A DNA stretch of 64,000 bases from Proteromonas lacertae (lineage: Eukaryota), in NCBI GenBank assembly GCA_002245135.1, contig NGBS01000607.1, positions 1-64,000 of the forward strand. The letters run 5' to 3'. The position numbers were made by a program, and so were the translations under genes. The notes beneath the pieces are model-generated. The model had not been told where the DNA came from. It saw nothing but the letters and a program-made list of their open reading frames with translations, and searched no databases. Below are positions 12,755 to 42,421 of the stretch, in pieces. Positions within the stretch are counted from its first letter, which is position 1; every line of letters starts with the position of its first letter.

Positions 12755-14507
12755 TTAATCATTTTCTTTTTCATTATAGGCTTTCTTACATAAGGGACAA
12801 ACATTATTCTCTTCAAACCATCTCTGCATACAAGCCAACTGAATTTTTATTAAAGAACACTTAACATAAATGAAATAAAAAAAGGATATATGATAGAAAT
12901 GTCTACATTTCAATAACACTATTTTATCACCTTCTTTATATAAATCCAAACAAATTGGACATTCATTTAATTCAGGATGTTTAGATTTATCATAGATTAC
13001 ATATGGTAATTTCTTTATTTCTTCTTTATTTATTGCATGAAGTGGAGGTAATACAATTCGATGAGTTAAAATACCCCAAAATTGATCATTATCTTCAACA
13101 TTTGCTTCTTCATCATCTTCTGCTAAATCAATTTCAATTGAACCTCCTGTTGTGCCTACTCTTCTTCCCATTCGAGATGATGATGCAGATAACATTGAAG
13201 ATCGACGAGTTGTTTTGTTTCTTCTATAAAATATTACGACTAATAAACCAATTAACATCAATATGATTAATAATGAGATTATGATTATTATGATTGTAGC
13301 ACTTTTGGAATTGGAAAAATCACTTTTAGCTTCTTCTATTTATATATTATTAATAGTTATATATATATAGAGATATACTCAAAGGAAACGACTCTAGTTT
13401 TAATATTAACAAATTATTCTCATTCAAACTATGACCATATTGACTTTTACCTCCATAACTATATATTATTGAATTATCTTTTATTGATAATGAATGAAAA
13501 CATTTGGATGGACTATTACTAACATCCAACTATATAAATATTATATATTATATATATATACTTCAAACCATTCATATTTATTTGTATTTAATGGCATTAC
13601 TAATATCTTATTTGAATATCCATGTTCTTTCGCTCCATTTGAATAATAACCACCATAATAAACATAATATTCATTATTATAGATTATACTATCACCATTA
13701 CTTCGACTAAATCGAATATTATCAGGAGTTATTTCAACCCATTCATTTTTATTTATCCTATATTCCCATACATCACTCATTAATAATTCTCGATCATTCA
13801 CATCTAAACATAAACCACCATATATTATTATTGAACATTCACTGATTGTTTTACAATATAATATTCCATTATGAGCATATCGAGGTAATATATTATTCTG
13901 ATTATTATAATGGATTTCTTTCAATTCGTATGTCATTAGATTTATGGTGTATAGCGATGAAGATATATCGTTATTATAATTCAATCCTCCAAATATGTAT
14001 AAATATTGATTATTGTAATTTACTATGGAGTATTGAGATAAGTACGGATATGGAGTATTCTATTCATGACAATATTATATGCACTTATACTTTATTGCTT
14101 TTTTCTTCAATTGTGTTATTTTTAATGTTATAAATGAGTAAATGGTTTTTATTGTTTGCTTTGTCACTGTAATATATTGCTATATATTCATCATTGTTCA
14201 TTGTAAATGTCACCTAACCAATTATACATATTAAAAATACACTTGTGGATAAATCTGAGTTTAAACATTGTTCTTTTAGAAAATATGGTTGAAAATTGTT
14301 AGATTTTTCATCAATATCATTAAGGGATTTAATATTTAAGGGAGAGCAGGTATGTGAGTGTTTTATCGATAAAGTGAGTAAATCACTGTTCGTAGAAATT
14401 ACATATTGACTTGACTCGACAACATCATCAAGATTATTTAGGTATTTCCACTCTAATCCACTAGAGGAATAAAGCAACACGCAAAAAATCAAATTAAAAA
14501 ATAACAT
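12755..14507 (-). CDS. Signal peptide + Kelch-repeat ectodomain + single TM + cytosolic RING-H2 E3 ligase (multi-exon)
   Basis: MLFFNLIFCVLLYSSSG signal; Kelch motifs PRYAH..IIIYGG..SDVWEY....EW and VYYGGY; TM MLIGLLVVIFY followed by RRNK; CPICL...CRHFYH/LACMQRW...CPLC after removing the 12839-12889 intron. Confidence 0.8.
12839..12889 (-). other. U12-type intron, AT-AG, 51 nt
   Basis: 5' ATATCCTTT; branch site TTCTTTAAT; 3' TTCAG. Removal restores RING-H2 C-x-H-x2-H-x2-C spacing. Confidence 0.85.
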
Positions 14508-14693
14508 CGATTTGAAACGATCATATTTTTTATATTACCCCATTTCTATTCTTCATTTTAAATTCTGAACTTACTATAAACTGTCATGTTAATGTAAAAA
14601 AGGTATAATAAACACAATATGCATTTTAGAAGATTAGAAAAAAATAGAATTAACAAAAGCTTGAGAAGTAAGTTTGAAAAGAATATATTCTAA

Positions 14694-15616
14694 ATGGAAT
14701 TTAGCGATCTAGGAGCACATTGTGCATTAGAAGGATGTAATCAGAAAGACTTCTTGCCATTTGAGTGTGAATATTGCCATAAGAAATATTGTTTGGAGCA
14801 TAGGTTGGTAGCAAAGCATAACTGTGAAAAGTTAAGTGAAATTAATAACATAGTATGAATAGTAAATTAATTTTAAAATAGAAAATTGATTTTGATAATC
14901 CTCAATTAAAGAAATGTCCTGTAAAAGGATGTAAAACCAAGCTGACAATGAGTAATAGAATTGAATGTAAACGATGCCATAAATATTTTTGCATATCTCA
15001 TCGAGATCCACAAGATCACGTTTGCACAGGTCATCCTTTAGCAAATAAAACATTTACTCAACCTCATCCACCATCTTCGAATAAATCAAATAGAAAAGAA
15101 GTATGCCCCTTTTGTGGTGAAACTTTTTCAGATGTAATCTCATTAATCAATCATACAGAATCAAAGCATAACAATGGTACTCCATCTATATCACCTCCAC
15201 CTAAATCTCATCCTATAGCTAAACCATATAATTCACCAACACAACAACAAACACAAGCTTTAGTTTATTCACCAGATGAAATATTTCCTATATGTAATCA
15301 GAGATTTAGAAATACAATTGATTTGATCAATCACTGTGAAAGTATACATAATGGAAATAATACATCAGTGACAACAACTCATTCTACTTTATCACAAAGA
15401 GAGATATGTGATGTTTGTGGTAAATCATTTGCTACAATCAATGAATTAATTGCACATGGAGATCAAGTTCATGCTCATAACAATAGAGGTAATAATGGTG
15501 GAAGTGAAAAATGTCCCAAATGTAATGCTAGTTTCAGAACTCCAGAGGAATTAGTTGATCATTATGAGAGTAGTCATAACAACTGTGCAACTGGGAGTGG
15601 ATGTTTAGTTATTTAG
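14694..15616 (+). CDS. AN1-type zinc finger protein (ZFAND2/AIRAP-like): two AN1 fingers, four C2H2 fingers, C-terminal CaaX
   Basis: MEFSDLGAHCALEGCNQKDFLPFECEYC...; intron 14853-14881; CxxC-x12-HxxxxH repeats; ends in CLVI. Confidence 0.85.
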
Positions 15617-15773
15617 AAGGTAAAATATTATTTTTCCTCATAATATTATTTATTTATTCAAAATATGTGTTATTCTAACAATATATCTGAAATTTATTAA
15701 TTTAGTATCTCAAAAAAACAAAAATAAAAATTTATGAAACGAATATATTTTTTTGTTATTTTTTGAAAGTTTT

Positions 15774-16506
15774 ATGAGTTCTCCGCGATATGATATCATT
15801 TTTAAAAGTATTTCATTGTGAAGTATAATTAAAATCTTAGTCGTAATAATTGGTGATTCAGGAGTAGGAAAGTCGAACTTATTTCTTCGATTTGTCAAAA
15901 ATGAATTCAAACGAGAAACAAAGACTACTTTGGGAGTAGAATTCGCAGCAAAACAAGTGGGTCTTAAAGATAAAGTGATAATGGCTCAAATCTGGGATAC
16001 CTGTAAATATTTATTTATTATTTGATCTAGCTGGTGTTGAAAGGTATAGAAAGACAATTGGTAAATATTTCAAATCATCTTCAGGTGCATTAGTCGTTTT
16101 TGATGTAACAAGTCGACAGAGTTTTGAAAATATACCAAAATGGATCACTGAACTTCAAAATATAACTGATGCTGGTTTATGTGTAGTAATAGTAGGAAAT
16201 AAAACAGATCTTAAAGAACAAAGGGTTGTAACTAAAGAAGAAGCTGAAAAATATGCTAAAGCCAATGGCTTTCAGTATATTGAAACATCAGCCTTAGTAG
16301 ATGATGGAATAAAAGAAGGATTTATAAATCTCACCAATGAGATTTATACGTTAGGATATGAAAATAATGATTATACAGGAGATAAACCTAATGTGAAAAT
16401 TAATAACGATGATGATCAAAATGATGATAATATGAAGAAGAATGCCAGTAATTCAACAAATTCTAAACAAACGAATGTTAATGGATGTGGTTGTTATTTA
16501 ATGTAA
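15774..16506 (+). CDS. Rab-family small GTPase (Rab11-like, divergent), 2 introns
   Basis: [37 protein letters not shown]-terminal CGCYLM. Confidence 0.9.
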
Positions 16507-16683
16507 TAATAGTAATATTATTAAGTAAGTCATAAATTAAACATCTTATATAATGTCTTATATATATATGTAGTCAATTGTTGTGGTTTATTTTTTGGAT
16601 ATAAAAGAGATTGGCTTGATAACTAGGCTTGAAGAGTTGTATATGACGTAGTTATTTACATAAAATACATTTTTCTTCTAAAA

Positions 16684-17631
16684 ATGATACTTGACTTTGT
16701 TTTAGCGTATACCACTCTTAATGTGATGGCATTCTTGTATTTTTTGTATTTATTTATTCTAGTTATACATTCTATGCTTGTTTTACTCAACAATACACCT
16801 TCTTCTATCTTGTTGATTGTATATCCTTTAAATATATGAAATATATATTTTGTTTCTTTAATTTATGCAAATTACAAGGTATTATTTTAAAATCATTCCC
16901 AGAGTTAGTAAAAAATCAGAAGCTATAGAGAAAGGACCAATATTATACTTCTGCAATCATCGTTCTTGGGCTGATTTTTTCTTAGATAGTGCTTTAGTTG
17001 GAGGTGCTTCATATTTATCAAGATTGTTAGTTGCTTTAGCTTGTCCAATGCCAGCATTAATAGGATACTTATCTGCAGTATATTCACAAATGCTAATATT
17101 ATTTAATAGTCTGTTTGGTTTTTTAATAGACGTCCAGGAATAAATAGAGACTGGTTAGCTAAATTTTTCCTAGACCATTGGAAAATACGTCCAAAATCTG
17201 GTGTTATTATATATCCAGAAGGTCATAGGAATTTGAATGAAAAATCATTGAAATTAAAGACAGGTTGCACAGAAGTATCCTTCAAAACTAATGTTCCAAT
17301 ACAAATAATTATATGTACAAATAAAGAGAGTATTATGAATGAAAAAGAATACACTGTTCAAAAGAATGTTACAGTTGTTGCTAATGTTTCAAAACCAATT
17401 TATCCTAAAGATTATAAATCAAAAGAAGAGTACTTCCAAGCTGTACAAGACTTGTGGAATAAAACATGGGATGAAGCTTACAGTTGTCCTGAATCTGAAA
17501 CATTAGAAGGATCTTACCCGTTAAAAGGATGTGATATTTATTTTAGTAAATGTCCAAGGAGCAGAATTATTCCATATAGAATATTAGTATTGGTTATATT
17601 TGGATGGATTGTTAAGAAGATTTTCTTTTGA
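16684..17631 (+). CDS. Lysophospholipid/glycerol-3-phosphate acyltransferase (PlsC family)
   Basis: Catalytic NHRSWAD (HX4D) and YPEG motifs; hydrophobic N- and C-termini. Confidence 0.85.
16821..16870 (+). other. U12-type intron, AT-AA, 50 nt (alternative model AT-AC ending at 16875)
   Basis: 5' ATATCCTTT; branch site TTCTTTAAT at 16854-16862; the adjacent GT (16819) with the nearest AG does not restore the frame. Confidence 0.7.
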
Positions 17632-17773
17632 TTTGTGATAATGTTATGTAGTTTTTTTTCGTTTATAAGAAGTAATAAAAGTGATATGATATTAAGTTGT
17701 TTTTCTTCTTTCAATAGAAATAATACTAATCATAACATAATTTATATCATTACTATTAAAACTATTACAATAC

Positions 17774-19409
17774 TTACCTAAATGCGACTTGGAGTCTTTG
17801 AATATGATCATAATGTCGGTGTTTAATGTAATGGTTGTAATTTATATCACAATAAAATACAGAATTAAATATAGGAAGAGTTACAGGAAATGTTATACCA
17901 ACACCAACAGCTCCTCTTAATTTCACCATTGAATTTGACAAATCAAAAACTATTATAAAGATATAAAGAATATATATATATATATTTTATACTCTTCTTC
18001 TGTTTACTTGACCAATTAAATAGATTACCTGCACTTACATAGAATCTCACATCAATATCATTTGGAAGTGGAAATATCAATGAAACATTTCCACTGTATA
18101 ATATATCTCCACCTAAGAAATCTCCATGTGATTGTCCATCTATTAACAATGATAATAATAAATATGATAAATACGTTGAATTTGTGCTCTTGGTCCTAAA
18201 CCAGTACTACTAAATCCATAAATATAATTTGTATCAATTTTTAATTTATCTGATAAATGAATATTGTTTATATTACTTTCATTATTACTTAATGAATTAT
18301 ACTTTAGTGGATAAACTATTCCACCATTAAAACCAATAGTCACTAATGCACCATTCTTTGATTTTTCTATTGGAATTACTCCTTTATAATAAAATAACTG
18401 TTTGATATAATTTACATCACCATTAAATCCAGCATATTCTAATATGTATTTTACTCTTGATTCTGTATAATTAGAAATCCAATCTAATACAATAAAAATA
18501 ATAATAACAATGAGGAATACTTGATTTGAATTGATATGTAATTGAGTTCTTAATGGATGGTCTTAATTCCTGTAACATTCTATTAAAAAATTAAATATAA
18601 AAAATGAAAATTAATAAAGAAAAATACTCTGCTGATATTTTATAATTATTATGATTTATTCTAAACGCTGGAATGGAATCTCTTAATGCTGAGCTTACTG
18701 TGACTATATGTTTGAGATTAGGCTCGAATGATATATATAATCCATTCTCATGTGCTAATATTGAAGAACTTCTTGATAGATTTAGTTGAGCACTATATTT
18801 AAATAAATTATATGTAGATTTTTATACTGTAATGCTGTGATTTTTAAGCAGTTTTAAATCTCCAAATGGGTTTAATAACAGCTGAACACCATATTTAGGG
18901 TTTTTAAGTTGAACATCTGTATTGTATTCAAACTTAATTCTCTCATTTTGCCCAAATATTGATCGAATCTTTAAATACATACTCGATCGATATTTTCCAT
19001 CAGATGCTGGTGCTCTTGATATGCCGAATGTGTATAGTGGATAGTGTTTTAACAAAAAATTCACATGTACATTGTCTATACTACTGCTTTTTATTGGTAC
19101 TATATATGAATTATATTTTAAATAAATACATAATCCTATATGTATGTCTATATCCTTGAATAAGTCAAGGGATTTCAATCTTTTATATACAGCTGATGTT
19201 TCAGCAAATAACCTTGCAAAATTACAGTCTTTTGGAATTGACTATAAATGATATGTTTACTAATACATTTTTGATAAAATCTTCAAAGATTGTTTGACTA
19301 GTTGAATATAATGGTAGTTATACTGGTTATCATCATCACTATGCACATTGATATTACCAACATGCAATTCTTTGTCTCTGAGTACCTTTGGCAGATTAGC
19401 AAACTTCAT
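17774..19409 (-). CDS. SAM50: Sam50/Omp85-family mitochondrial outer-membrane beta-barrel assembly protein (multi-exon)
   Basis: POTRA-like MKSLDLFKDIDI; GLGPRA...DFLGGD..YSGNVSLIFPLP...RFYVSAGNL...RGAVGVGITFP. Confidence 0.75.
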
Positions 19410-19560
19410 TTTAAATTTTTTTCTGTCATTTCATAGTAAAACAAAAATCACTTGTTTCAAATGTAATACAAACAAAATAAACACTTAATAATATACAGTA
19501 CATAAGAATAAATTTAAGGATCAAACCATATATAACAATAAATATCATCATTCAACAACA

Positions 19561-22500: not shown

Positions 22501-22579
22501 CCACTCTTGTTGTAGTTGTTTCTGACGCTCAATCTTAGCTAATCTCTCTTCTTGTGAAAGGTGCAAATAAAGAGGCCAT
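19561..22579 (-). CDS. Large low-complexity (Q/N/P/M-rich) coiled-coil protein with CSPP1/CCDC66-like 'KQ..Q.EL..QI.E' motifs; frameshifted in this assembly
   Basis: Consecutive minus-strand ORF pieces with GT-AG introns; ERQKQLQQEWQSQIAERDR and ERKRQEQLKFRMDIERQIKEKQERK. Confidence 0.5.
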
Positions 22580-22677
22580 AATATTTATTACTATTTACAA
22601 TGAAGAATCGATGTGATATTTTTAAAAACAGAAATATAGGCTTGATTGAGCTTGAGATTATTTTTTTCTTTTAAAGA

Positions 22678-24038: not shown

Positions 24039-25241
24039 TTACAATTGAATAGTTCTTTGGTTTTCACAAGCATATCCGTAATATCCTTGGAAACAAGTAC
24101 ATAATCCAGTCTTTGAATCACACTAAACCTCTTCCAGCAACATAAAGTTGGTGTTAATTTCAGCTGATGCAGATATGTACCAGTTTACCATCTGATTTAT
24201 ATATTTTACCTTCTACTGGCGTAAATCAGTACTATTGGATATGTCCATTAGTCCTTCAGCAGCATGCTATTTACTTCGGATGATGTAAACTTGCTTGGAT
24301 CTGATGATTCAACAATAATATCAATCTGAGCTTCTGCTTCAGCAGTATTAGCATGATATTTGAACTGAAGATTGAGTTAGTGGAGCAACTGTTTGTAATT
24401 GCTCTTTTCATTCTCTTCTTGATAAGTATTGGCTAGGTTGTAGTCTTTATACAGTAGCATTGACATCATGCTTGTGTGCATTAACATTGCTAATGGCACA
24501 GCTCTTATTACTGGTGTTGGATATGTTACTCCATCATAAGTTACTTGCAAATAATATGGATCATGTAAGTTTTGATACTTGATTTGTATGTTCAAGTGTA
24601 TATTTCATTGTAGAACCAGAGAATTTCACTGGATCTAAACCCATTGGACATTGTCTCAAACTACAATCAACACCTTCATATCCAGCGTCACATTTACAAG
24701 GTAAAGAATTTATCTAATTCCCATCCATAATATGAACTACCTTGTTCTTTGGCATATGCTGTACTACTCATACAAACACCATTTCCACTACAACTTACTC
24801 CTTCTACACTACTAGGACAACTACGACGTTGACAAGCACTTCCTTCATATCCTTTATAACATACACAATCACCAGTTGTTCTATCACAACTTCCACTGTT
24901 GGAACATTCAGCATATCTGTGATGCTCTGCTCTTTGTGACATATCCTTTCAAATTTTCACTCAATCCATACTTAGGTCTCCATTCTGTCTTTACTACTGT
25001 ATTGTCTACATCACCATCATGATCTAAATCTCCCAGTGGAATATCGACCAAGGCTTCACCATAGGGACATGCTCCTATACTTATTATACTGTTAGAATAT
25101 ACTTAAAGAGCAATCAGCACCTCCCCAACCCATATAACACTCACACTTGTCTTTTGGACCACAATTACCATGTCCGTTACAATACTTGTAACAACCTAAT
25201 ACGCAAGATAAGTATAAAACCAACAAATAGATAGCTTTCAT
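24039..25241 (-). CDS. Stramenopile mastigoneme (tubular hair) protein, Sig1/Ocm1-like, EGF-like Cys-rich; frameshifted in this assembly
   Basis: Signal peptide; CNGHGNC..CECYMGWGGADCSLRACPYG.A.VDIPLGDLDHDG; EHHRYAECSNSGSCDRTTGDCVCYKGYEGSACQR; DCSLRQCPMGLDP; terminal GRGLCDSKTGLCTCFQGYYGYAC. Confidence 0.75.
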
Positions 25242-25408
25242 CGTCAAAATGAAATTTTCTAGTTTGAGATACGTTGATAGGGTTTTATAAACGAATATAA
25301 GAAAATTATAACCATTTTGTTATTTCTCTATAAAATATAACATAAATAAAATAAAAATGATAAATATAATAATAAATAATACACTACAACAACATTATTC
25401 TATATTTT

Positions 25409-26662
25409 TTAGTTTTCAATATTATATGTCACATTTAATCTATCTAAAATCATTAACACAACCTTATTAATTGTATTATTCAAATACACCAATCCATCAT
25501 CAGCAAGCCAACCAGTTTTACATACATTATCATTTCTTCTTCGATAATGATATATTATTCCTTCACTCTTCTTATCTACATTTCTCTCGTTTATTATTAA
25601 ACTACCATATGCAATATTATGTATATTAATATGATGGAATTTGTTTGTCATTATGGATAATATACTTTTGGAACTTACTAGCTGCCCATTCACAGTTTGA
25701 ATGGACTTTAAATATATCAAAATCTTTCATTCGATTAATTAACCATTTATTTTCATCATAATAAAACGTACGATAATCTTTACGATAGAAATAATATATA
25801 TCACTTTGATGATTATCGATTTTAGTTAATAATTCATCAATTGTTTTGATATTTCTATTGATTGGTACAATTATTTCATCCTGATCCATCATTATTATAT
25901 TCTTTGAATTTCCTTCGATATCTGTAAAAACAATCGTTCAATTTGATTGGCTGACCATAAAATGAATCTTTTGTTCGAATACTACTGTAAAAGGTGTAGT
26001 TTAATTCAATAATATCGATTATTCCCAGTTTATTGTAATATTTCATTATTTTATCAATTTCTTCATTCCATGACATCTTATATACTGCAAAATGATCAAT
26101 TCCATACAATCTATTGATTTCTAACCACTGTGTGAATGAATAAGAAACTGAATAACCAATGAATGTTGATAAACACATTGTATAATTGTACTTGATCAGG
26201 TTATTAGGTGAATTCATTATCTCTGGAGGTGGAATTCTCAGACACTTTTCATTTAAGATCAAAATTGTGGGTGAAAAATGTAATTTAGGAAAATAAATCC
26301 ACATATTGAAATAATTCTCAATATAATGATTATAAAACTTCAAAAATGCTTCACATTGTATTGAACTGTATGTAGATTTCAATTGACAAGAATATGGAAC
26401 GAGGCCTGTGATTTGTACCATAACCTAATATCCTATAATGACCCATTCTTTCATCATAAAACAATGATGTGATATAAATACCATCTTCTATCTCGAATGA
26501 GTTCATTTTTTCATAATCGAATATTGAACAATTATACCTGGTGATTACATGTAATGGTGGCTTGAGAGGATAAGTATACAAATTATAAAATGTGAAGAGC
26601 GGAAATGTGATGATTAGTATAAGGATCAGCGGCGGTATCTTCATAATCACCCTAAATCGCAT
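25409..26662 (-). CDS. Glycosyltransferase family 92 (DUF23)-like type II membrane protein; three apparent frameshifts
   Basis: N-terminal TM; MCLS..TQWLEINRLYGIDHFAVY; YGQ...NDCFYRYR; DQDE (DxD); KYII...HN...HYR. Confidence 0.75.
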
Positions 26663-26793
26663 ATACTAAAGACAATGAGCAAATGATAAACATTTTCATT
26701 GAAAAAATATATCACTTTTCTTAACTGTTATTTTTTAAAGAAAATTATTTTTATTTTGTTGTTGATATTTATTGTTAGTAAAAGTTATATAAA

Positions 26794-29700
26794 ATGAATG
26801 GACTCTTCTCAGAACAACTTGGCACACCGTTAGTTAGGCCAACAGCAACCAAATTCCCAGATGATCTTGTACCGAAAAGACCTAATGGATCAAGACCTGT
26901 GTCATCTATGAGTACACCTAGAGCAGGCAATAATCAGGATATTACAGCTATGTCACCAAGAAAAGCGAGATATTATCAAGGCTTAAGCAAATCAGAGGTT
27001 TCGCCTGAGTTATTATTTCATTTTGAAACTATTGAAAATGAAATACCTTATTTTTATCAAGTATATAGATGAAGATTATAAATTAATAGGGTGATGTTAC
27101 GAATTATACAACACAAACTGTGGCAATGAGATATGTATTGAAAAATAATATACAAATAAGAGGTGTAATAAAACGATTCTGGGATACACATACTAAAACA
27201 AAAAGTGGCGAAATTAACAAAGAAGAATATACAGGATTCTTAATAAAAGTACAGAGAGCATTATATGAAGATTTTGACTATGCCAAAGCAAAAGATATAG
27301 CTGAGAAAGAGTGGAGTCACGATTGTTCAAATTCTGATAGGTATAGATATAGATATATATGATAATATTTGGTTATATATGTGTAGTATGAATTTTCATG
27401 AATATTTTGATGCAATGTTTGAAATGGTAGATACTTGGACTGATGATATATCCGTTGAAAGTTATGTTGACTTTCTAGAGAAATTATATTCACGAATAAC
27501 CCAACAGAAAATGTCAGCATTCTTAATGGCATTGAAATATGGTAGAAAATGGAGGAATTTAATCAAAAAACAAAGTATCAACAGAAATTAACTATTATTT
27601 TATAGAAGTAGTAGATGGAATGGGTCAAAAAGGAGAAATGAGTGAAGAAGAAATCATGAAAGCACGTTTAAATATAGTATATATACAACTTAATTTATAA
27701 TTGAATTAATTAGACTGAAAAATATTCAAAGTTAGTAACAGCAACCAATTCATTATTATCCATCGCATGTCAAGAACGAGATATAAACGCGATCAAAATT
27801 ATTTTAGAAGATAAAAAAGGAGATGTTAATGAGATAGATAAAACAGGAGCAACATTACTAATGAAAGCATGTTTCAAAGGATATTATGACGTATGTAAGT
27901 TACTAATTGATTTAAAAGTCGATATAAATGTCCAAGATAACAATCAAAACACTGCACTTCATATAGCATGTAATAGAGGTTATAAAGATATAGTAGAATT
28001 GCTATTAACCAGTGGTGCATTAAGATTAAAGAATAAAGTAGGAGATAGACCAGCAATCCCGTAAGAAATTAAGACATTTTGTGAATGATAATGCTGCTGA
28101 TGCTTATGCATTGAAGAATGGTGGTAATAGAAGGAAGAGTAAAGTTGGTAATGGTAAAAGAAGATCATCCTATTGCTAGGAAATCAACTGTTGAAGATGA
28201 TGAAGCACCAAAGAAACCAAAGAAAGGACCAAAAGTATATATATATTCTTCTATTTTTTTTCTATTCTTTATTTTTATTTATTAAATATTATATAATAAA
28301 TAGAAAGGTGAATTAGTATCAGCAGTTAAATATGGCAATTTCAAATTAGTCTCATCTCTCTTAGATGATGGTGCAGATCCAAATGAACGTGATGTTGCTG
28401 GTAGTACAGCTTTAATGTTAGCTGCTTGGAATGGAGATCTCAGAATTGGTAGAGAATTAATCAAAAGAGGAGCTGATATAAATGCACAGAATCTAAGGTT
28501 AAATACTGCATTTACACTTTGCTTATGAGAAAGATAGAACTGCTTTTATTAAACTATTAGAGTCAAAAGGTGCAATGAAAACTGCCAATGCTTTAGGACA
28601 GATTCCATTAACAAAGAATGAGATATTAAGTCAAGAAAATTCCAATTTAAATATTGAATCAAATATTAGCTCAAGAAAATCTAAAAGCAAAGTATCGAAT
28701 GGCTGGTTTAGGTGTGTTAAGTGTAGCTGCTTTAGAAGGTAATGTAGAACAAAGTGATGAAGTGTTTATCTAAAGGATGTCAAGTCAATGAGAGAGATAA
28801 TAATGGAAGTACTCCTTTACATCATGCTACTTGGTATGGTAGAGTAGAAGTGGTAAGAATATTGTTACAATCAGGAGCTGATCCAAATGTATATATATAT
28901 ATATATATTATTTCTATATTTATCTTTTGTATAGTCTCAGAATATGAGAGGAAATACAGCCTTTACACTTTCGCCTATGAAAAGAATAATAAAGAAATCA
29001 TCTCTTTACTAGAATCACATGGTGCACAAAAGCTTCGTAACAGTTTAGGTCAAATACCAGGCCATCAAGCCAATAAAGAATCAATTAGCTAAAAAAAGAG
29101 AACAACAAAAACAACAACATAAATATAGTGCTGAAGGTTTAGCAATAGCCTGTAAGAATGGTGATATAAAAGGAAGTTACTATGATATTAGCTGCTGGTG
29201 TTAGTCCAAATGTACAAGATAGTAATTGTAGTACTCCTTTAATGCATGCTGTTTGGAGAAGTAATTATCAATTGTGTGAATTATTGTTAGATAGTGGAGC
29301 TGATCCAAATGTATAAATATGATGTTTTATATTATTATTTTATTTATTTATTTAGATTCAAAATTTGAGAAAGAATACAGCTCTTCATTTCGCTTATGAA
29401 AAAGATAATGAAGATATTATCAATTTATTAGAAACAAGAGGCGCTAGTAAAATGAAAAACTCATTAGGTGTATATCCAGGTGAAAAAATAGCTCCAGTGA
29501 AGAATGATAATAAAATAGACTTACCAATTAGCATAATAGATGCATCAAAATCAAATAATTTAGATTTGATAAAGACATTATTAAAACAGAAAGTAGATGT
29601 GAATATGAAAGATCCAAGTGGTTCAACTGCTTTGATGAGTGCAGCTTGGAATGAGAATAAAGAAATTATTGAAACTTTATTATTGAATAATGCTGATCCA

Positions 29701-31676: not shown

Positions 31677-32501
31677 CTATTTTATCTGTTTGAGTTTATC
31701 ACCTGTTTTATTATCAATATAATACACTTTCCCATCTCCATCATCTTGGGTTGTCTCTACTCTTCCATCTGGATATTTGGTTGTTGTTGTTCTTCTTGTT
31801 ACTTTCTTACCATTTACATAAATTGTCTGTGTACGTGTTGACTTGGATATTCCACCTCCACCACCCATTGATGAAGAGGAAAATGAACTAAACGTTGAAC
31901 TACCACCTCCGCCAAAACCATCATCAAAACCTCCAAATCCACCAAATCCACCAAAACCACCTCCAAAGAAATCATCTCCAAATCCTCCAAATGGATCAAA
32001 GCCATGATGATTAGATCTATTATTGTTTCCTTTTCTTGGATGACCAAAACCATCAAAATCATCGAAATCATCGTCGAACATTTCAAATGGATTTCTTCCA
32101 CCAAAAAATTGTGAAAATATATCAGCAGCATTAGCGAATGAAAAGTCATGAAATCCACTATAATCCACCATCTCCTCCATCTCCTCCAACTGTTCCATAC
32201 ATGTCATATTCTCTACGTTTCTGTGGGTCACTCTAGCAAAGTAATTATATAAATATACTAAAACAGAGTAAGCTTCACCTATTTCTTGGAATTTTGCTGA
32301 AGCAGCTTCACGATTGTCTGGAATTTTTATCCTACAATATAATTGAATGGTATAGAAATACTGGATGCCATTTTACTATAAAAAATACAAACAAATAAAA
32401 AACATACAAGCTAATTTCCTATAAGCTTTCTTAATTTCATTCTCATCTGCATCTTTAGATACTCCTAATATCTCATAATAGTCTTTCTTGTTAGAAGGCA
32501 T
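31677..32501 (-). CDS. DnaJ class B co-chaperone (DNAJB6-like): J domain plus G/F-rich region
   Basis: [30 protein letters not shown]...[20 protein letters not shown]-rich region; STRTQT..VNGKKVT. Confidence 0.9.
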
Positions 32502-32623
32502 AACAAATAGAAAAATAGATTATTCTAGAAAAAATACATGTATTTACAGTTGTAATTTACACTAATTTACATATTCAAAAAAAACATACAACTATGTAAA
32601 AGAATAAATAATATATATTATTA

Positions 32624-33139
32624 TTACAACTCATTTTCATCTGTCTTTACACAAGGCATATTGTAATTCTCTTTGATAAAATTATCAATATTATCAAAAG
32701 TTGGTTCATCTTCAAATACTACAGGATCTGTTTTATCACATCTACTGAAATACTATTAATAAATTATAACTATATAATTGTTAAATACTAATAAATAAGG
32801 AACATCACTAATTCCTAAATCAATTCCTAACTTTTTATATTCTTCAAAATGCATTCCAGCTAATACTAACAATTTATCTTTTTCATATTTTATTCCTAAT
32901 TTCATCCATTTTGGAGCTAAATCAATTGAATGATCACTCCTAAAATGTAATTTATTAATAATATTCATACCAGCTAGCAAATACATTTAAAAATACATCT
33001 TTCTTTTCATCATATACTATTTTTCTGAAGTTTTTGGCATTAACAGGAACAACTATTGCCTATAAGATATATAATATGAAAATACATCAGCAGTTAATAG
33101 CGTTAGTAGTAATATTATGAAAATTAAATAATTATTCAT
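32624..33139 (-). CDS. Secretory-pathway single-domain thioredoxin/PDI-like protein, redox-inactive
   Basis: Signal peptide; spliced DVFLNVFASWSDHSIDLAPKW; VPYL cis-Pro loop; C-terminal ENEL. Confidence 0.7.
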
Positions 33140-33162
33140 TGAGAAAAAGGAAATTCAAAAAA

Positions 33163-33177
33163 TCAAGCAAAGCTTGA
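33163..33177. promoter_or_regulatory. Inverted pair of the candidate promoter motif (TCAAGC-aaa-GCTTGA) in a 67-bp divergent intergenic region
   Basis: Lies between the starts at 33139 (-) and 33207 (+); the same hexamer recurs upstream of several other genes. Confidence 0.5.
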
Positions 33178-33206
33178 AAATCTATTCTGAATTAATTGAT
33201 TATTTG

Positions 33207-33561
33207 ATGAATAGAGTGTTGAAGCGTAGTATTTTTAGTTGTATCGAAATATTTGTTATTGTAATGATTAATTAGTCATGAAAGGATTCTCTCAAAAAGA
33301 AGTAATAGCTGAAAAAGTGTTGCCTTTAATTGTTGATCCGTTAACAAAGGTATAAGCATATATTATGCAATATTTAATAGGAGAAATTAGTTTATGACAA
33401 ATCACAGAATATATTGGTTAATAACTCACTAAATTTGGCTTATATATCTTTTTATTATATATTATTATTCATTTATACACTTTAATGCAGTTTAAAGAAT
33501 AGAAGATGGAATTGTTATCTTAGATCCTCACGAAGCTATACCTTTAGATAGTTCAAAATAA
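33207..33561 (+). CDS. PYURF: PreY/Trm112-like (UPF0434) protein with a presequence-like N-terminus
   Basis: Spliced MNRVLKRSIFSFMKGFSQKEVIAEKVLPLIVDPLTKEKLVYDKSQNILVNNSLNLAYRIEDGIVILDPHEAIPL; absent from the ORF track because of 3 introns. Confidence 0.75.
33444..33495 (+). other. U12-type intron, AT-AA, 52 nt
   Basis: 5' ATATCTTTT; branch site CACTTTAAT; 3' TTTAA. Removal restores the Trm112-type AY-x-I-x-DGI motif. Confidence 0.8.
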
Positions 33562-33697
33562 AATTTTTGAGTAGCTTTATTTAAATATAATGATATTTAT
33601 GACATAAAATGTATTATTTCAAGAAAAATCATTCATTAAACAAAAAAAGGATTTGAATTTAAAAATTCGCGCCTTACTATTTAAAAGAGAAAATATC

Positions 33698-36595
33698 ATG
33701 ACTGCAGTTGAAATTTCTGAAATAGTTTATTTTAAATTACCTATTCAGTGAGTGTCAATACATTATGACAAACGAAGCATGCTTATCTTCAGTAATTTAT
33801 ACTGTTGAGATAAATCCAGCAGTTAAAAGGTTTTAAAATACTCTACTGACATTATCCCTAGGTGTAGAAATATTGTAACCAATGTTGAAGACATAGACCA
33901 GCTTAATGTCATTATTTCTGCTGCTTCTTGTTCAAATCTCAAAAATGAAGTAGAATCGTTAATGAATAATTATGTTCGAATAGATAATGAATGTAGTAAG
34001 ACTATAAATGTATATATTTTACTTTTTTATTAATTAGGAGCTTATAGACCATATTATCGAAGAAGATGAGAAAAACAAAGGAAAGTATGACAATGACAGT
34101 GGATCAGAAACAGAATGTGATTCAGAATATGACATTCCAACAGAAATGGGCAAACTCTCAAGCTTACCTGACTATTCAACCCCTTACGTTCGAGTCGCCA
34201 AACATTGTATATAGATATAAATACATTATTATAGCAATATGAATGTGACAAGTGTAAATCGAAGATTGATTCATACTCAGAGAATAGATACAAGTGTATA
34301 GAATGCCACAACATTGATTTATGTGAAAACTGCTATTTAAGTGGTGAAAGTATATATATATATATATATAATTATAAATAGAATATGAAAGTAAAAACCA
34401 TAAACAGAAACATCAAATAATAAAAATCCCAAAATATCAAACAATCAACAACTTACACTACAATCCAAACTTCCATTGCGCATTGGAAGATGAATTATCC
34501 ATTTTAAATGCAATTATTCTCTGTGGTTTAGATTTCGAAAGAATTAGTGTAATATGTGGTAAAGGAAATTATAAAAACTATGAAGAATATTTCTATTTGA
34601 AGTTATTACCATTATTCTCTAATAAAAATGATAATAATTATGGAAATGATGAAGAAGAAGATATGAAATATATCAATAGAAGTGTTGATTATAGTGTGGG
34701 GTATGAAAAGAATGAAAATATTTTCACACCCCAAGTCAAAGATGTAATTATTGGTAAATATGACACTAGAGATGGTAATAATAATAATAATGCATTTGAT
34801 TTATTGATTAGTAATTATGTCATTAATAATATAAGTGAATTGAAGAGTAAGAGAAAGTATAAAGATAAGAGTAAATATGATGTTGATCAATCATATATGT
34901 ATGGAATGATATGTATATATTATAAATAGTGTTTTATTATTAATATATTATAGGGTTATTCTTACCTGAAAGTAGTACTTTATCAGTATTAACGATAGAA
35001 AGATATAATGAGAACAGTAGTAAGTTCCAATTAAGATGTATTACTATATATTATAAATATTATTATAAATAGTAAATCGTGAAAGAATCTATACCAAATT
35101 AGAAGAGAGTGACTGTTGTAGTTATTTATACACAAAGAACAAAGAAATAATAAAAAGATTACAGAATAAAAGGAATAAGAAAATAAAGTTAGTGAAGAAT
35201 ATTACTATTAACGAAGATAGTGATAGTGATAGTGAAAGTGATGAAGACTCCATAAAGATATTTGACAAATATTTAAAGAAGATAAATGTATCAAAAATGA
35301 AAGAAAATGATAATAAAGTTGTTGTGAATAAAAACAGCAATAATAATGTTTATATAAAACCATCTATTACTTCATCATATCCATTATTGTATCCAATTAA
35401 TATCAGTAATATAGACTACTGTTGGGTATGTTTAAATAATAATAATAATAATAATCAAAACAATCCATTATTAGAATGTAAAATATGTTGTGGAGTTATT
35501 CACAAAGTATCTATCTATCTATCTATATCTCTCTATATATAATAGTATTGTTATGGATATAAAGATATCAATATAATCGATATTAATAAGTGGATTTGTG
35601 ATAGATGTAGTTATTATAAAGAAAAGTATTTAGATCATAATGAGTGTGCTATCTGTCCAATCAAAGGTAAAGGTGTAATGAAATGTAATTCAAAAGGCGA
35701 AACTGTCCATCCAGTATATATTAATATATATATATATATATAGTTGTGTTATTTCAGTAGTAATAATAATGGTAATTTCAGTAATATAAAAATAATTGAT
35801 AAAAATGATAATGATTTTATTATAGAGAATAATAGGAATAGTTTAATGCCAAAGTGTAAAATATGTTGTAATTTATATGGAGATGTTGTTTATTGTGGTT
35901 GTATGATTAAGAAATGTAAGTTCCCATGTCATGTTCAATGTGCTAATCTACACAATATATCATTTATATATATAAATATTATAATTATTATGTATTCTTT
36001 AATATTATTGTTTTAATTATGTTCAATTATTCAGAATGATGATGATAATAATAATGTTAGAATCACTCCTTATTGTCTTACTCATTATGAGAATAAACAT
36101 AAACCTGTTATTAATCATGAAATTAGTAACGTGATATTTCATTCGTGGAGTCCTGTCGTTATTTTGAAAACTAATGGTTATACATTTATTAAACCTTTAC
36201 CTTTTATTGCTCCTTGTTATTTGAAAGAAGAGAATAATATAAAGAAAGAAAAGGAAGAAGGAATTGAAAAAGAAAACATTAATAATTCTATTATTCTACC
36301 ATCTTCCAAACGTGTTGAAGTAAAAAGAGTATTAGCATTACATAATACTAATGTGAAAGAAGAAAATGAAGTAAAGAAGTGTAATGAAGAGAAGAAAGGA
36401 AAAGAGAATAATAATGAAGTTGTTTTACCATCACCAAAATGTGTAAAAGTAAAGAGAGTATTACCTATTCAAAATAGCAATATGAAAAAGGAGAAAAAAA
36501 GAAAAACAGCAAGAAGTAAAAGTATTCTGAATGTATATCCAACAAAAATTACAAGATCTATGAGAGATGATGATTTAATTATGGGTTTATTTTAA
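33698..36595 (+). CDS. Chromatin regulator with ZZ zinc finger, SANT-like domain and PHD-zinc knuckle-PHD (PZP) module
   Basis: YECDKC...RYKCIECHNIDLCENCY; EDELSILNAI...DFERIS; CWVC...LLECKICCGVIHKYCYG..WICDRC; CAICP..VHPLC; CKIC...CHVQCA...YCLTH. Confidence 0.8.
35957..36016 (+). other. U12-type intron, AT-AA, 60 nt (alternative AG end at 36034)
   Basis: 5' ATATCATTT; branch site TTCTTTAAT at 35995-36003; an in-frame TAA at 36014-36016 must be removed to reach the final PHD ligands (YCLTH). Confidence 0.7.
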
Positions 36596-36639
36596 AACAC
36601 AACACATTTATTATAATAACAATCATTTTATTATTTTGA

Positions 36640-39600
36640 TTATTCTTCATCAAATTTATGAGAAATTTCTTTGTATTTAGTTCCATCTTCATCATTTCCC
36701 TATTGTAATATATCTTTATAACTCATATTTATACACATAAATAAAAACTATCAGATAAACCTTTATAACATAACATCTTTTCTTTGTTACTTTCTGCAAA
36801 TTCTGTTGCTTTACTGTAATATGATATACTTTTTACTGTATCTTTCTATATTATCATTATTATTTTATTATCAATATACCATTTTCAAATAACAATTCCC
36901 TATCTCATTATTACATTCAAATCTTTCTTTATCTAATGAACAATTACTTAAACATTTCATCAAATATTCAATGGCTTCTTCTGGTTTATTCATTTGCATA
37001 TAACATAATCCTATATTTAAATCAGTTTCATATTTATTATCTCTAGTTTTTGCCTTTTCAGATGCAATAGTCAAATGAGATAATGCTTCTTCAAATTCTT
37101 CCTATAACAATACAACAACAATCATATATATATATATATTTACCATTTTACAGTAACAATCACCTATTGAAGATTCACAAATGAAAATTTCTTCTTCATC
37201 TTCTGCTGTTTCTAGTTTTGACTCAAATATTGGTATTGCTTCTTCATACAACCCCTATAACTATGTAATTTCTAAATGTAATACAAGACTATGATATGTA
37301 ACAGCAATATTTATATCATCTTCAATTTGTTTATCCTCATTTATAATAGATTCAATATTTATATTATTCTCTCTACATTGCTTTATATTTTCCTTTTAGT
37401 TTATATAAATATTTAAAAATACAATCTCTTTGTAACATAATTCTAACCTGCCATTCGCTTCACTCTTTTCCTCTTCAGATGATGAATATTTTATACCCTC
37501 TTTAAAATATGGGATAGCTTCTTCTGGTTTATCCTATTCATATATTATATATTTGTATATAGTATAAATACTCTATAGAAATAATATTGTCCTAAATTTA
37601 TATTCGCAGCATATTTTTCATCCTTTGCTTTTGCATTCTTTGACAAGAATATCCAATGAGGAAAAGCTTTTTCTTCATTATCCTATTACATACGAATATA
37701 GAAAAAACAATATACTAAATTACTATAACAACTACTTAATAATCTTCTGCATCTAATTATATCATCTTCATTATTTAATAATTTCAATTCATCTTCACAA
37801 TATTTTGCTGCTTCAATATCATCTCCCTATACAACAACAATAGAAACAAAAATACTATAGCATAACACATATTAGTAATAATATCCAACACTGCTTTTCG
37901 TTTATCGTCTGTTGATGCATATTTAAGAGCTTCTTTACAGTATTTAATTGTTGATTTGTAATCTTCCTAAAATTGTTATAACATATACATACAATTGAAA
38001 TATATTCTTTTGCTAAACTAAAATTACAATTATATCCTTCATCATCTGATGAAACATACTTTAAAGCATCTTTATATGTTGGTCTTAGTTTTTCTTTTTT
38101 CCCCTAAATCATTAATAACAATAAACATACAAGTTTTGTATAACAATCAATAACCATCATTTTACATTTATATGATTCATTCTTATTTGATGTATTATCT
38201 ACTGCTTTATTAAGATATTTAATTGCTTCATCATATTTTGACTATTATAAACATAATTATTGAATTAATACTGTCGCAATACACAATCCTGCTGCTGTAA
38301 AATCACATAAATACAAATTTTCTTTTTCACTTTTTGTGGCATATTTTTCTGCTGTTGTAATATACTTCAATGCTTCTTCAAATTCATGTTTTCAATATTA
38401 AACAGCGACCTAATTTGAAATTACTGTCAAATTTTAGTAAATCGGATTGGGCATGTTTTAATGCTTCTCTTAGATATGGAACTTGTTTCTCATATTCTTT
38501 CTATTATTTATATTATCAGATATTAGTTTTATACTAAATTGTAATAACATTCACTAATTCCATTATTTATATTCCATAATTCTTCTTCATTTAAAGATTC
38601 GTTCAAACATTGTTTAAATAATTCCATTGACTATTTATCAAATATACAAAATAGATATACTTTTTCATATTCTTTATTTTCTAATAATGAAACAGCAGTA
38701 TCTAAAAGATTATCAGAATCTGATTTTTCACCATTTTCATTCATATTCTGTTTTATATACTCTTTATCTTCATTAGATGTATTCTCTTCTATCATTTTTT
38801 CTAAATCATCTAGATGTTTCATTTCATTAGAGTCTTTTGCATATATTTTTGATTTTTGAATATAGTTTTTGGACTTTTCAGTATTTCCCTATTAAAGAAC
38901 ACAAAATATTAATACGATTTTTTCATAAGATAATCCTAAAATAATACTAAGCAGAATACTTTTCAATTTCAGATGAAGCATACATTAAACTCTTTTCTTC
39001 ATATTGTATTGCTTCTTTAGGTTTATCCTATAGACATAAATAAATATTTATCATAAAATACAATTGAGTAATAGCATGATCCCAAACCAGCATAAGCTAC
39101 GTATTTGTCATTCTTTGTTTGTGCATTATTTGCTACATATAACCAATGTGGAATTGCTTCATCGAATTTTTTCTATGAATAATAATATAACATGTTTTAA
39201 TACAATTTTCATATAACAACCAGCTAATTGTCTTCTACAATCAAAAATAGTTACTTTATTTGTAGAAATTTTTAATACACACTCTATAGTTTGAATAGAT
39301 TCTTCATATTTTCCCTATTATTATTAAATATGTTTAAAGAAATACTAAACCAAACTGACTCAATCCAATTGTGTATAATGGTGGAACTTTATCAATTTCA
39401 TTTGTTATATGATTTAATGCAAATTTGCTATATTTTATTGCAGTATCATATTCTTTCTACATCATAACAATATATATAAGTAGATATACAATTAGATATA
39501 AACATTTTCCTAACATTTTATTACATTCAAATTTTTCATCTTCTGTCGTTGAATCTTTAATTGCTATCTGGTAATATTCTATTGATTTATCATATTTTTT

Positions 39601-40380
39601 CTATATAATTATATTATTCGATTAAAGAATATACTGTTTTGAAATAACATTCAGCTACATAAAAGTTTGATACCCACTTTTCGTTTTTACTATGACTGTA
39701 TTTTATTGCTTTGCTAAAGTATTCCAATGATTGTTCCCAATTTTTCTAAAGCAGAAAATTATATATATATATATATATATACTAAATTATATAACAAATC
39801 ACCAAATGAAGCATAACAATGATATCTTTCTTCATCATTACTTGAAGAAGAAAACTTCTTATCACAGCAATCTTTTGCTTTTGTTATCATTACCCTATTT
39901 TATGTAAAAAAATATTGATATAGTACAATTTTGAGGTATGTACTAATTAAATCAGAATATAATTTATATTTCTTTGCATTATCATCTAGTTGATTGAATT
40001 GCAGCAAATAAGTATGGAATTCTTTTTTCATCCATATTCTAAAATCTGTTATATAAAACTAATACCAATGATTTATAACATTCATTGATATTTATACAAC
40101 AGCTATTTACATGATCTATATCTGTAGCATATTTAATGGCATTTTCAAAACATTCTATAGCCTATTAATATAAATATCATACTATACCTTCATGTACTCT
40201 TTCTGAAAACTGTAATCAAAAGCTTTACTGTATTCTATTCGATACTTCATGAATAAATCATCAGAACGTTTATTCACGGTTGTTAATTTTTTCACCATTT
40301 CATCTAGTTTCTTATTGCTCCCTTTATTCATTACTTAATGTCAAATAAACATTTAATAACAAGCCAAGTTTTTTATTCAT
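36640..40380 (-). CDS. Long TPR-repeat protein, about 23 introns
   Basis: Repeated IG.CY..L/GKY.EAI.Y units in exons of about 105-115 nt. Confidence 0.8.
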
Positions 40381-40508
40381 TTTTTTCAATAACCAAATTT
40401 TTTAAAATCAATTATTTCTTTTCTCATTCGTTAAAATAATAATAACAAGCAAACATTAATCTCAATAATATTTATATTTTTAAAAATTAAGCAATATTAA
40501 CATATTCA

Positions 40509-42421
40509 TTAGAGATATTCGTACTTCCTATCTCTTCACTTGTCAATGAGTTCATTGTTTCAGATTGTTTCACTTTTATATAACACATCACTCCAATTAG
40601 TATCACAATCACTAATAAACCACCTACTACTCCTAATATCACTTGTATATATTGTTCCATTATCTTTTACCATTATCATCATCTCCATCTTCATTTAATT
40701 CATGTAATATATCACTCACATTACCATTTTGAATTGTTTGCCATTTGAAATTCCATAAATCAGGTTGACCATCATGTTTTATATCTTTTAATTTACTTGT
40801 ACTCCATTGAAATGGAGGAACCATATCATTATAAGGAGGACTACTGATTATTTCACTTCTCATTTCATCTTCATATAGTTTATAACTCGTTACTTTGCAA
40901 TCTATTGTCATGGCTGATCTAAAACCAATTCTTGGATTGGGATAAATACCATCTGGTGGATTTAAATCAGCTCGAGATGCGATCGCTAAATAAGCATTCT
41001 CTTTTGGAATACAATTCTCACAAATACTAAATTCATCATTTTTATAATTGTTTTGTCTCATTAATTCTCGAACGCCTTTTATATCTTTTATCTTTACATG
41101 ATCTCGATTAAAAATCTTTGCTCGATTATTTTTAACATAATCATAATAATCACCATATTTATCTATCAATTCTTGAATATTATTTATCTCACGAATCTCA
41201 GAGAAATAAGCTAAATTATAAGATGGCCAGTAACTCTCTTCTCTCAAACGATTGGTCATATCTCGATATATCACTGTTCCAGGCATTTGTTCTAATATAT
41301 ATAATAATCCATCATTCAACTCATCTTTTCCTACTTCGAATTTTGATAAATCGACTATCATAAATTGATTATTATAACATCCATTATTATATTTCTTAAA
41401 ATATTCACACCATTCTTTACCATCTTTAGATAATCTATTAGCTATCATCGTTCTAATCCATATTGACATCAAGTTAGGTTTTATATATTGATTCAGTGTG
41501 ATGTTGTTATTACTCAAAGTTGTTTCTGTTACTACCATTTTGTTAGATAACATGTAGAAATCATCCTCACTGAATAAAATACCAAAATAGGATGAAAAAG
41601 AGATTGTTTGGTGATTTACCTTCTCTTCACTATTTGCACTTACTTTCCAAGGGAAAGTAAACACTTTCCATACTCTTAGTAATGTCTCTGGAACTATCCA
41701 AGTATTATGTGAAATTATTATATCTTCAAAATTTGGTAATATCTTTATTAATGCACTACATCGATCATATTTTACTAATTTACCTTTTAATATCTCTTGT
41801 ATATCTCTTATATCAGGTGAAAATATCATGTGATAGACTTGTTCTTTACTTAATACTTCGTTCTTATTCATGAATTTTTCATATCCATCTATCATTCCTT
41901 CACTTTGTTTTAATAATAAATGAACTTGATAATTATAAGGATCATTTAAATCTTTCGTTAATTCATTCATGAATTCTTTATTCGATTTTATAAATTCAAT
42001 CAATTAAACACAATGTTAAGGTTAAAACTAAACAAAAAACAAAAAACAAAAAAAAATAAATAAAAAAAATAATAAAAAATGATATTTTTTCATCAAATTC
42101 ACTTGGACCAATAAAATTGTTATATAACTCATACATTCGATGATGAGTAAAATAAGATTCTAAGTAACCAGCAGCATAAGCTTGTTCAGCATCACTGTAA
42201 CTATCATTCGTTTTTATACGTAATACACTCCAACCATTCTTGTCAATTGTGTCATTGAAACTACCATATGCAACACTAGTTTCTAACAAAACACCTTCAA
42301 CTACTTTATATTCGTTGTTTTCATACTCAACTGACGCGAATTCACCACCTATTATTTAATCTATATCAACATATATTATACAACAACTCACTATCAACAA
42401 AATCAAAATTAAATAATACAT
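40509..42421 (-). CDS. Phospholipase B-like (PLBD/Ntn-hydrolase) protein with signal peptide and probable C-terminal TM anchor
   Basis: NGWSVL..QAYAAGYLE; CSALIK nucleophile; SHNTW; ETT; NNGCYNNQF; EQMPG; YWPSYN; IASRADLN; IDCKV. Confidence 0.9.
42004..42085 (-). other. U12-type intron, AT-AA, 82 nt
   Basis: 5' ATATCATTT; canonical branch site CCTTAAC at 42021-42015; 3' GTTTAA. Joins FDEK to LIEFIKSNKEFM. Confidence 0.85.

What the first reader, a model, noticed from the sequence alone, without database searches (positions are those of the whole stretch)
12839..42085. A family of non-canonical U12-type introns (AT-AA / AT-AG) at high density: an apparently transformed minor-spliceosome system
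Seen: five introns in five unrelated genes share a 5' end ATATC[C/C/T/A/A]TTT and a branch-like CTTTAAT (4 cases) or CCTTAAC (1 case) ending 8-13 nt before the 3' end. In the preferred models none ends in AC: four end in AA and one in AG. They are 50, 51, 52, 60 and 82 nt, longer than most GT-AG introns here (about 26-45 nt), and all are phase 0. I found no GT-AG solution at these sites, and four restore a conserved motif. Known: the U12 consensus is RTATCCTT / TTCCTTRAY with GT-AG or AT-AC ends; such introns are normally rare and depleted in phase 0; expanded atypical sets are reported in Physarum and in Blastocystis ST1. Inference: this lineage has an expanded minor-intron class with a relaxed +6 donor position and a 3' site chosen mainly by distance from the branch point. 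Standard gene finders would mis-annotate all five.
Basis: partly seen in the sequence, partly recalled or inferred. Interest (0 to 1): 0.92.

Follow-up and report, generated by a model that had tools for sequence, protein, structure and literature searches.

The report
Dense minor introns with loose ends
Five genes of an AT-rich flagellated protist carry 50-82-base inserts with the signals of the rare 'minor' splicing machinery; they are predicted to be cut out at AA or AG rather than the usual AC and likely make up about 4% of introns, a more extreme version of what Blastocystis shows.

Summary
The five sites are real. Of 26 ATATCNTTT motifs, 5 have a CYTTAAY branch motif downstream (0.49 expected). 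Only 1 of 87 ordinary GT-AG introns has C at +5 or that motif. Homologues fix the removed length at three sites: PLBD AT-AA 82 nt, RING-H2 AT-AG 51 nt, Trm112-like AT-AA 52 nt. Two ends are softer: the acyltransferase has an AT-AC alternative and the ePHD gene an AT-AG alternative. One rule, the first xAN 6-8 nt or more past the branch motif, gives all five ends. The assembly has about 1 frameshift per 1.4 kb, but that cannot explain several AA ends. No RNA, genome or minor snRNA was available, so splicing and a 'transformed spliceosome' are untested. Much is prefigured in Blastocystis ST1: about 1% minor introns, phase-0 rich, and 41 of 120 deposited ATATCC introns read here end AG, AA or AT. 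New here: AA-dominant ends (AC 0-1 of 5), relaxed +6 (3 of 5 versus 3 of 339), and about 4% density from one window. This scan earlier noted only single AT-AA minor introns, in other genomes. Verdict: new variant of a known kind.

The parts
12839..12889 (-). U12-type intron, AT-AG, 51 nt, phase 0, in a RING-H2 domain (gene about 12755-14507); branch motif CTTTAAT at 12849-12855
   Evidence: In-frame insert with no stop; RLIM 6w9a aligns residues 37-69 and 70-89 on either side with the 17-residue insert absent; enumeration
16821..16870 (+). U12-type intron, preferred AT-AA, 50 nt, phase 0, in an acyltransferase gene (16684-17631); branch motif at 16856-16862; alternative AT-AC end at 16875
   Evidence: Profile scores 295.6 vs 291.1 and 283.2 vs 280.2 bits for AT-AA vs AT-AC; coding statistics favour AT-AA; pairwise votes 21 vs 27 favour AT-AC
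16737..16762 (+). 26-nt GT-AG intron whose splicing decides whether the next intron ends AA or AC
   Evidence: Donor and acceptor lie within the range of the 87 reference introns (ranks 0.14 and 0.08); coding score -5.3 if read through
33444..33495 (+). U12-type intron, AT-AA, 52 nt, phase 0, in a Trm112/YcaR-like gene (33278-33561); branch motif at 33480-33486
   Evidence: 52-nt removal aligns without a gap to E. coli YcaR across the junction; exon 2 weakly matches PDB 2jny, E 1.2; nearby AG ends are out of frame with this donor
35957..36016 (+). U12-type intron, preferred AT-AA, 60 nt, phase 0, after an extended-PHD motif (gene about 33765-36595); branch motif at 35997-36003; alternative AT-AG end at 36034
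   Evidence: Insert holds in-frame stops and scores as non-coding (-16.7); Pfam PF13771/PF13832 weak matches end at the donor; the end rests on the first-xAN rule; no homologue alignment obtained
42004..42085 (-). U12-type intron, AT-AA, 82 nt, phase 0, in a phospholipase B-like gene (40487-42421); branch motif CCTTAAC at 42015-42021
   Evidence: Rank 1 of 1087 open-frame models (tied with its two slid equivalents) against the two closest homologues, 38 bits above the best GT-AG; P0124 residues 62 and 63 map to either side; no AC or AG within 25 nt after the motif

Best explanation
These five inserts are likely genuine minor-class (U12-type) introns that all start ATATC, and the minor spliceosome is predicted to cut them at the first xAN lying about 9-14 bases past the branch adenosine, whatever the last base is. 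Shown: the donor and branch signals, their absence from the GT-AG class, and the length that must be removed at three sites. Inferred: U11/U12 recognises donor and branch together; the C-to-T changes (+6T, CTTTAAT) would still pair as G-U wobbles; +6A would be a mismatch offset by the fixed TTT at +7 to +9; with the last base free, AT mutation pressure would drive it from C to A. Inferred also: the class is locally about 4% of introns and may be recently gained, because its phase pattern follows the major introns.
For: Donor-branch co-occurrence 5 of 26 vs 0.49 expected. C at +5 and CYTTAAY each in 5 of 5 vs 1 of 87 GT-AG introns; length 50 nt or more in 5 of 5 vs 2 of 87. Gap-free register with homologues at PLBD, RING and Trm112 sites. 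First Y-A-N at 6, 7 or 8 nt or more after the motif equals the model end at 5 of 5 sites; first AG matches 1 of 5 and first AC 0 of 5. U12 introns are defined by donor and branch, not termini, with an optimum branch-to-end distance of 11-13 nt (PMC3584512). Blastocystis ST1 has the machinery and shows a free last base in deposited introns: AC 79, AG 32, AA 7, AT 2 of 120 read.
Against: No RNA evidence and no genome. No minor snRNA in the window. The assembly holds about 37 predicted frameshifts in 51 kb of coding sequence. Two ends have canonical or near-canonical alternatives (AT-AC, AT-AG), and Trm112 has a 52-nt AT-AG model with a non-U12 donor scoring 67 vs 68. The rule's minimum distance was tuned: 3 of 10 values tried work. 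+6A is atypical: 0 of 339 ATATC-starting rows in the searchable Blastocystis file. PMC3584512 says AT-AG combinations appear disfavoured. The gene model's own 3' ends differed from the preferred ones, so codon statistics alone do not fix them.
Confidence: 0.72

Rival explanations
1. They are ordinary U12-type introns with mostly AC or AG ends; the AA ends come from assembly errors and wrong upstream models.
For: About 1 frameshift per 1.4 kb, 26 net insertions and 11 net deletions; relative P0123 changes frame against the window near 40660. AT-AC and AT-AG alternatives need no error at two sites.
Against: PLBD has no AC or AG within 25 nt of the branch motif. Losing exactly the last base at three sites has probability near 1e-11 at the measured rate. 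The nearest predicted frameshift is 0.7-6 kb from each site.
Confidence: 0.13
2. They are spliced by the major (U2) spliceosome, as AT-starting variants of the dominant GTAT donor or as converted minor introns.
For: Major donors here are GTAT in 96 of 103, one base from ATAT. U2-dependent AT-AC introns exist (PMC1557818 abstract start). No minor snRNA seen in the window.
Against: The five differ from the major class at +1, +5, branch motif, length and last base together; 87 of 87 reference introns end AG, 82 of them TAG.
Confidence: 0.08
3. The inserts are one recent transposon-derived (introner-like) family or are not spliced at all (retained inserts or decayed genes).
For: The RING insert is in frame without a stop. 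All are phase 0 in unrelated genes.
Against: The five bodies share only short AT-rich local matches, scores 18-33 at +2 per match, with no shuffled control run. Flanking exons are intact and conserved at 84-91% in relatives. Four inserts contain stops or shift the frame.
Confidence: 0.07

Closest known systems
Blastocystis ST1 minor introns (Gentekaki 2017, PMC5608401; Larue and Roy 2023, PMC10639083)
   Same: Expanded class (346 of 35,412), AT-starting, longer than the 30-nt major introns, 49% phase 0, A fixed at -2 with a variable last base (41 of 120 read are not AC).
   Different: Blastocystis keeps +6C (336 of 339), often varies +7/+8, uses CCTTCAC/CTTAAC-type branches about 4-8 nt from the end (read by eye), and is 66% AC and 6% AA. 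Here +6 is C, T or A with fixed TTT, the branch is mostly CTTTAAT 8-13 nt from the end, ends are AA 2-4 of 5 and AC 0-1 of 5, and local density is about 4%.
Physarum polycephalum expanded minor system (bioRxiv 2020.10.12.336362)
   Same: High density, +6T donors, non-canonical ends led by AT-AG (29%) and AT-AA (27%), branch at a narrow distance (9-12 nt).
   Different: Physarum has 20,899 minor introns, a changed TTTGA branch with compensating U12 changes, bias away from phase 0, and non-canonical ends are a small minority. Here the branch stays near canonical, all are AT-starting and phase 0, and no snRNA was tested.
Rare AT-AA and AT-AG U12 introns of animals and plants (PMC1557818 Table 2; PMC10639083 section 30)
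   Same: Same termini and signals; AT-AA is the commonest non-canonical pair in the 2023 survey.
   Different: They are about 1-6% of minor introns in those species; here they appear to be the majority.

Membership tests
U12-type (minor) spliceosomal introns | 5' splice site RTATCCTT | tested here: inconclusive
   ATATC and +7 to +9 TTT in 5 of 5; +6C in only 2 of 5
U12-type (minor) spliceosomal introns | Branch sequence CCTTAAC-like close to the 3' end | tested here: met
   CCTTAAC x1, CTTTAAT x4; branch A 9-14 nt from the end; 1 of 87 GT-AG introns has the motif
U12-type (minor) spliceosomal introns | Removal restores the reading frame and protein | tested here: met
   Gap-free with homologues at 3 of 5 sites; frame restored at all 5
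U12-type (minor) spliceosomal introns | Actually spliced out of the mRNA at these ends | not testable with these tools
   No RNA holder listed
U12-type (minor) spliceosomal introns | U11, U12, U4atac, U6atac and minor-specific proteins in the genome | not testable with these tools
   No whole genome held; none in the 64-kb window, which is uninformative
U12-type (minor) spliceosomal introns | Typical AT-AC or GT-AG termini and bias away from phase 0 (usual, not defining) | tested here: not met
   AC in 0-1 of 5; phase 0 in 4-5 of 5
Physarum-type transformed minor system | Changed branch consensus with compensatory U12 snRNA changes | not testable with these tools
   Branch is near canonical; no snRNA sequence available
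Physarum-type transformed minor system | Genome-wide expansion by recent gain | tested here: inconclusive
   5 of 92 to 5 of 139 introns in one window, 95% intervals 1.2-12%; orthologous intron positions not tested
U2-type introns with AT start | Donor, branch and acceptor resemble the genome's major class | tested here: not met
   Differ at +5, branch motif, length and last base
Introner elements | Copies share internal sequence | tested here: not met
   Only short AT-rich local matches among the five, no shuffled control

The most novel reading that the evidence does not exclude
This lineage has a minor-intron class of several percent of all introns, recently gained, in which AT-AC has been replaced by AT-AN with AA the majority end, and U11/U6atac have changed to accept any base at +6: a minor spliceosome that no longer reads the last intron base, second only to Physarum in scale.
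Probability: 0.3. Interest if true: 0.82.

Novelty: new variant of a known kind. Interest (0 to 1): 0.6.

Why it matters
If it holds genome-wide, it is a natural test of how the minor spliceosome picks its 3' site (branch distance versus terminal base pairing) and of whether minor introns can be gained in bulk, an open question raised for Blastocystis in PMC10639083. It also means gene models that allow only GT-AG or AT-AC would mis-annotate a few percent of introns in this lineage: my GT-AG-only model split, truncated or retained the insert at all five genes.

Tried and rejected
Whole genome: none held. RNA runs: no RNA holder listed; no evidence either way. Rfam scan of the window: one chance hit, no spliceosomal RNA; no tRNA. 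Metagenome scans: PLBD query, 0 of 47 candidates confirmed; acyltransferase alignment, 3 of 251 candidates with weak 38-42% matches over 41-45 residues, not usable. IFT70 tree of 48 rows left the window sequence unplaced on a long branch; lineage not established. ePHD homologue alignments: none useful. First gene-model run over-predicted introns and was discarded. Read-through with one frameshift at the acyltransferase site scored 4.9 bits below AT-AA in both profiles. GT-AG U12-type introns: 0 of 3 GTATCNTTT motifs have a branch motif. Two extra U12-like calls (675-799 minus, 45996-46187 plus) rejected as long and in poorly modelled regions. DNA of the 84-91% identical relatives could not be obtained, so conservation of the introns is untested.
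Full report
Setting. The window is eukaryotic, 27.1% GC, gene-dense. It encodes IFT70 (46704-48688), so the organism is likely flagellated, and a bacterial-type NanE-ROK protein. The best named IFT70 matches are stramenopiles at about 60% identity, but a 48-row tree left the sequence unplaced. A flagellated gut stramenopile near Blastocystis is a lead only: Proteromonas is listed at 27.0% GC and Blastocystis lacks flagellar genes (PMC12129017, passages and section 5). No genome and no RNA run were available.

Observation. A motif scan recovers exactly the five sites. Of 26 ATATCNTTT motifs on both strands, 5 have CYTTAAY 25-80 nt downstream; random placement gives 0.49, P 5e-5, optimistic because the motif was set after seeing the sites. 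I built a small gene model from the window. Of 134 predicted GT/GC-AG introns I kept 87 as a reference (start GTA, GC at most 20%, at most 70 nt; 47 dropped). They have median 33 nt, C at +5 in 1 of 87, CYTTAAY in 1 of 87, AG ends by construction, and phases 47/23/17. The five sites have C at +5, the branch motif and length of 50 nt or more in 5 of 5. They form a separate class.

Site by site. PLBD (42085-42004): among 1087 open-frame models, AT-AA 82 nt ranks first against the two closest homologues, tied with its two slid equivalents (AA-TA, AA-TT), and fifth against 21 homologues; the best GT-AG is 38 and 28 bits lower. P0124 residues 62 and 63 fall on either side. No AC or AG lies within 25 nt after the branch motif. 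RING-H2 (12889-12839): the insert is in frame; RLIM aligns on both sides with no residue to spare, which AT-AG 51 nt satisfies. Trm112-like (33444-33495): 52 nt must go for a gap-free match to E. coli YcaR; with the ATATC donor that is AT-AA, and the four nearest AG ends are out of frame; a 52-nt AT-AG model shifted by 2 nt scores 67 against 68 but starts ATCTTT. Acyltransferase (16821): AT-AA 50 nt needs the 26-nt GT-AG intron at 16737-16762; without it AT-AC 55 nt works. Profiles of 33 and 103 homologues favour AT-AA by 4.5 and 3.0 bits, coding statistics by about 13 log units in total, but pairwise votes favour AT-AC 27 to 21 among 57 scored of 91. I put AT-AA at about 75%. ePHD (35957): AT-AA 60 nt or AT-AG 78 nt; no homologue alignment was obtained.

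The 3' rule. The first Y-A-N ending at least 6, 7 or 8 nt after the branch motif is the model end at all five sites; other minimum distances from 3 to 12 fail at one or more. First AG matches 1 of 5 and first AC 0 of 5. Chance in-frame agreement is 1 in 243 for five sites, about 1 in 25 after allowing for the ten distances tried (my estimate). Three AA ends share TTTAA. This supports a branch-anchored end with a free last base.

Artefact check. Allowing frameshifts, the model finds 37 in 51,096 coding bases, 26 net insertions and 11 net deletions, so the assembly is error-prone; a relative's protein confirms one frame change. The five sites were still chosen. Turning an AA end into AC or AG with the same protein needs loss of one specific base, about 2e-4 per site. 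The nearest predicted frameshift is 708-5962 nt away. Error may touch one site; it is not a plausible source of the class.

Density. 5 of 92 (5.4%, 95% interval 1.8-12.2) or 5 of 139 (3.6%, 1.2-8.2); P of 5 or more at the Blastocystis rate is 0.002-0.012. The window was flagged for this cluster, so the estimate is biased upward.

Mechanism. From PMC3584512 (passages): donor and branch define the class; U11-48K reads the first three bases, U11 pairs further in, U12 pairs with the branch; optimum branch-to-end distance is 11-13 nt; non-canonical ends splice, often less well. Inferred: C-to-T changes keep G-U pairing (the facing snRNA bases are recalled, not from a call); +6A is a mismatch offset by TTT; a free last base drifts to A in introns of 7-18% GC. 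Phase 0 in 5 of 5 fits the major-intron pattern (P 0.046) better than the usual 22% (P 5e-4), which hints at recent gain, as proposed for Blastocystis (PMC10639083 section 29).

Comparison. Blastocystis ST1 has 346 minor introns of 35,412 and all minor snRNAs (PMC5608401 section 8). Its deposited intron table (supplement 32, cut when stored) has 336 rows starting ATATCC, 3 ATATCT, none ATATCA or ATATCG. I read 120 of the 336 (rows 1-30, 101-130, 201-230, 307-336): AC 79, AG 32, AA 7, AT 2 (counted by eye). The GTATCCT rows shown look like 30-nt major introns. So a free last base already exists in deposited data, though the section describes the ends as typically AT-AC. The window differs: AA 4 of 5 vs 7 of 120 (P 2e-4; P 0.04 if only 2 of 5), AC 0 of 5 vs 79 of 120 (P 0.006; 0.056 if 1 of 5), +6 not C 3 of 5 vs 3 of 339 (P 3e-5). 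Physarum (bioRxiv 2020.10.12.336362, part 1 of 4 and passages; supplements not seen) has 20,899 minor introns with AT-AG and AT-AA leading its non-canonical minority. In animals and plants non-canonical ends are about 4-5% of minor introns (PMC10639083 section 30; PMC1557818 Table 2). PMC11347168 (passages) gives 0.29% minor introns for B. hominis.

Novelty. Searches found no report of an AA-dominant minor class, and none holding both Proteromonas and U12; subscription papers are not covered, one relevant genome paper was not held, and supplements 13-31 and 33 of PMC5608401 were not searched. Earlier scan notes show only single AT-AA cases in other genomes and nothing for this DNA. Verdict: real, works like a U12-type class, membership unproven without RNA or snRNAs; new variant of a known kind; interest 0.6.

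Noticed in passing
window 24200-29200, 51870-52190, 54480-54690, 60120-60150 and others: Many single-base frameshifts in otherwise intact genes (ankyrin-repeat gene, ZIP transporters, NanE-ROK, EGF-like and GT92 genes); about 37 in 51 kb, mostly net insertions, which points to an unpolished assembly.
   Followed up: yes
window 59616-61269 +: Apparent NanE (N-acetylmannosamine-6-phosphate epimerase) plus ROK kinase fusion with no predicted intron and one frameshift near 60125; nearest Atlas clusters are all bacterial, so possibly a transferred sialic-acid-use gene.
   Followed up: partly
window 2475-11228 -: About 2900-residue protein with an N-terminal kinase-like part and several AAA-like (midasin-type, by eye) repeats; an 8.3-kb open frame. 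A 420-730-nt segment occurs three times (2125-3033, 9248-9852, 11642-12367) at 94-97% identity.
   Followed up: partly
window 50388-55092 +: Tandem array of four ZIP-type metal transporter paralogues (family by eye), 77-94% DNA identity in parts.
   Followed up: no
whole window, GT-AG introns: Major introns have an unusually fixed donor, GTAT in 96 of 103, and TAG in 82 of 87, with no clear branch consensus; this suggests changed U1 or U6 pairing regions.
   Followed up: partly
window 46704-48688 +: IFT70/TTC30 with one 29-nt intron; shows flagellar machinery, which Blastocystis lacks.
   Followed up: yes
P0121, P0145-P0151, P0123 (unnamed short-read contigs): Relatives at 84-91% protein identity occur on many contigs (17 for P0145); their DNA would test intron conservation free of this assembly's errors.
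   Followed up: no
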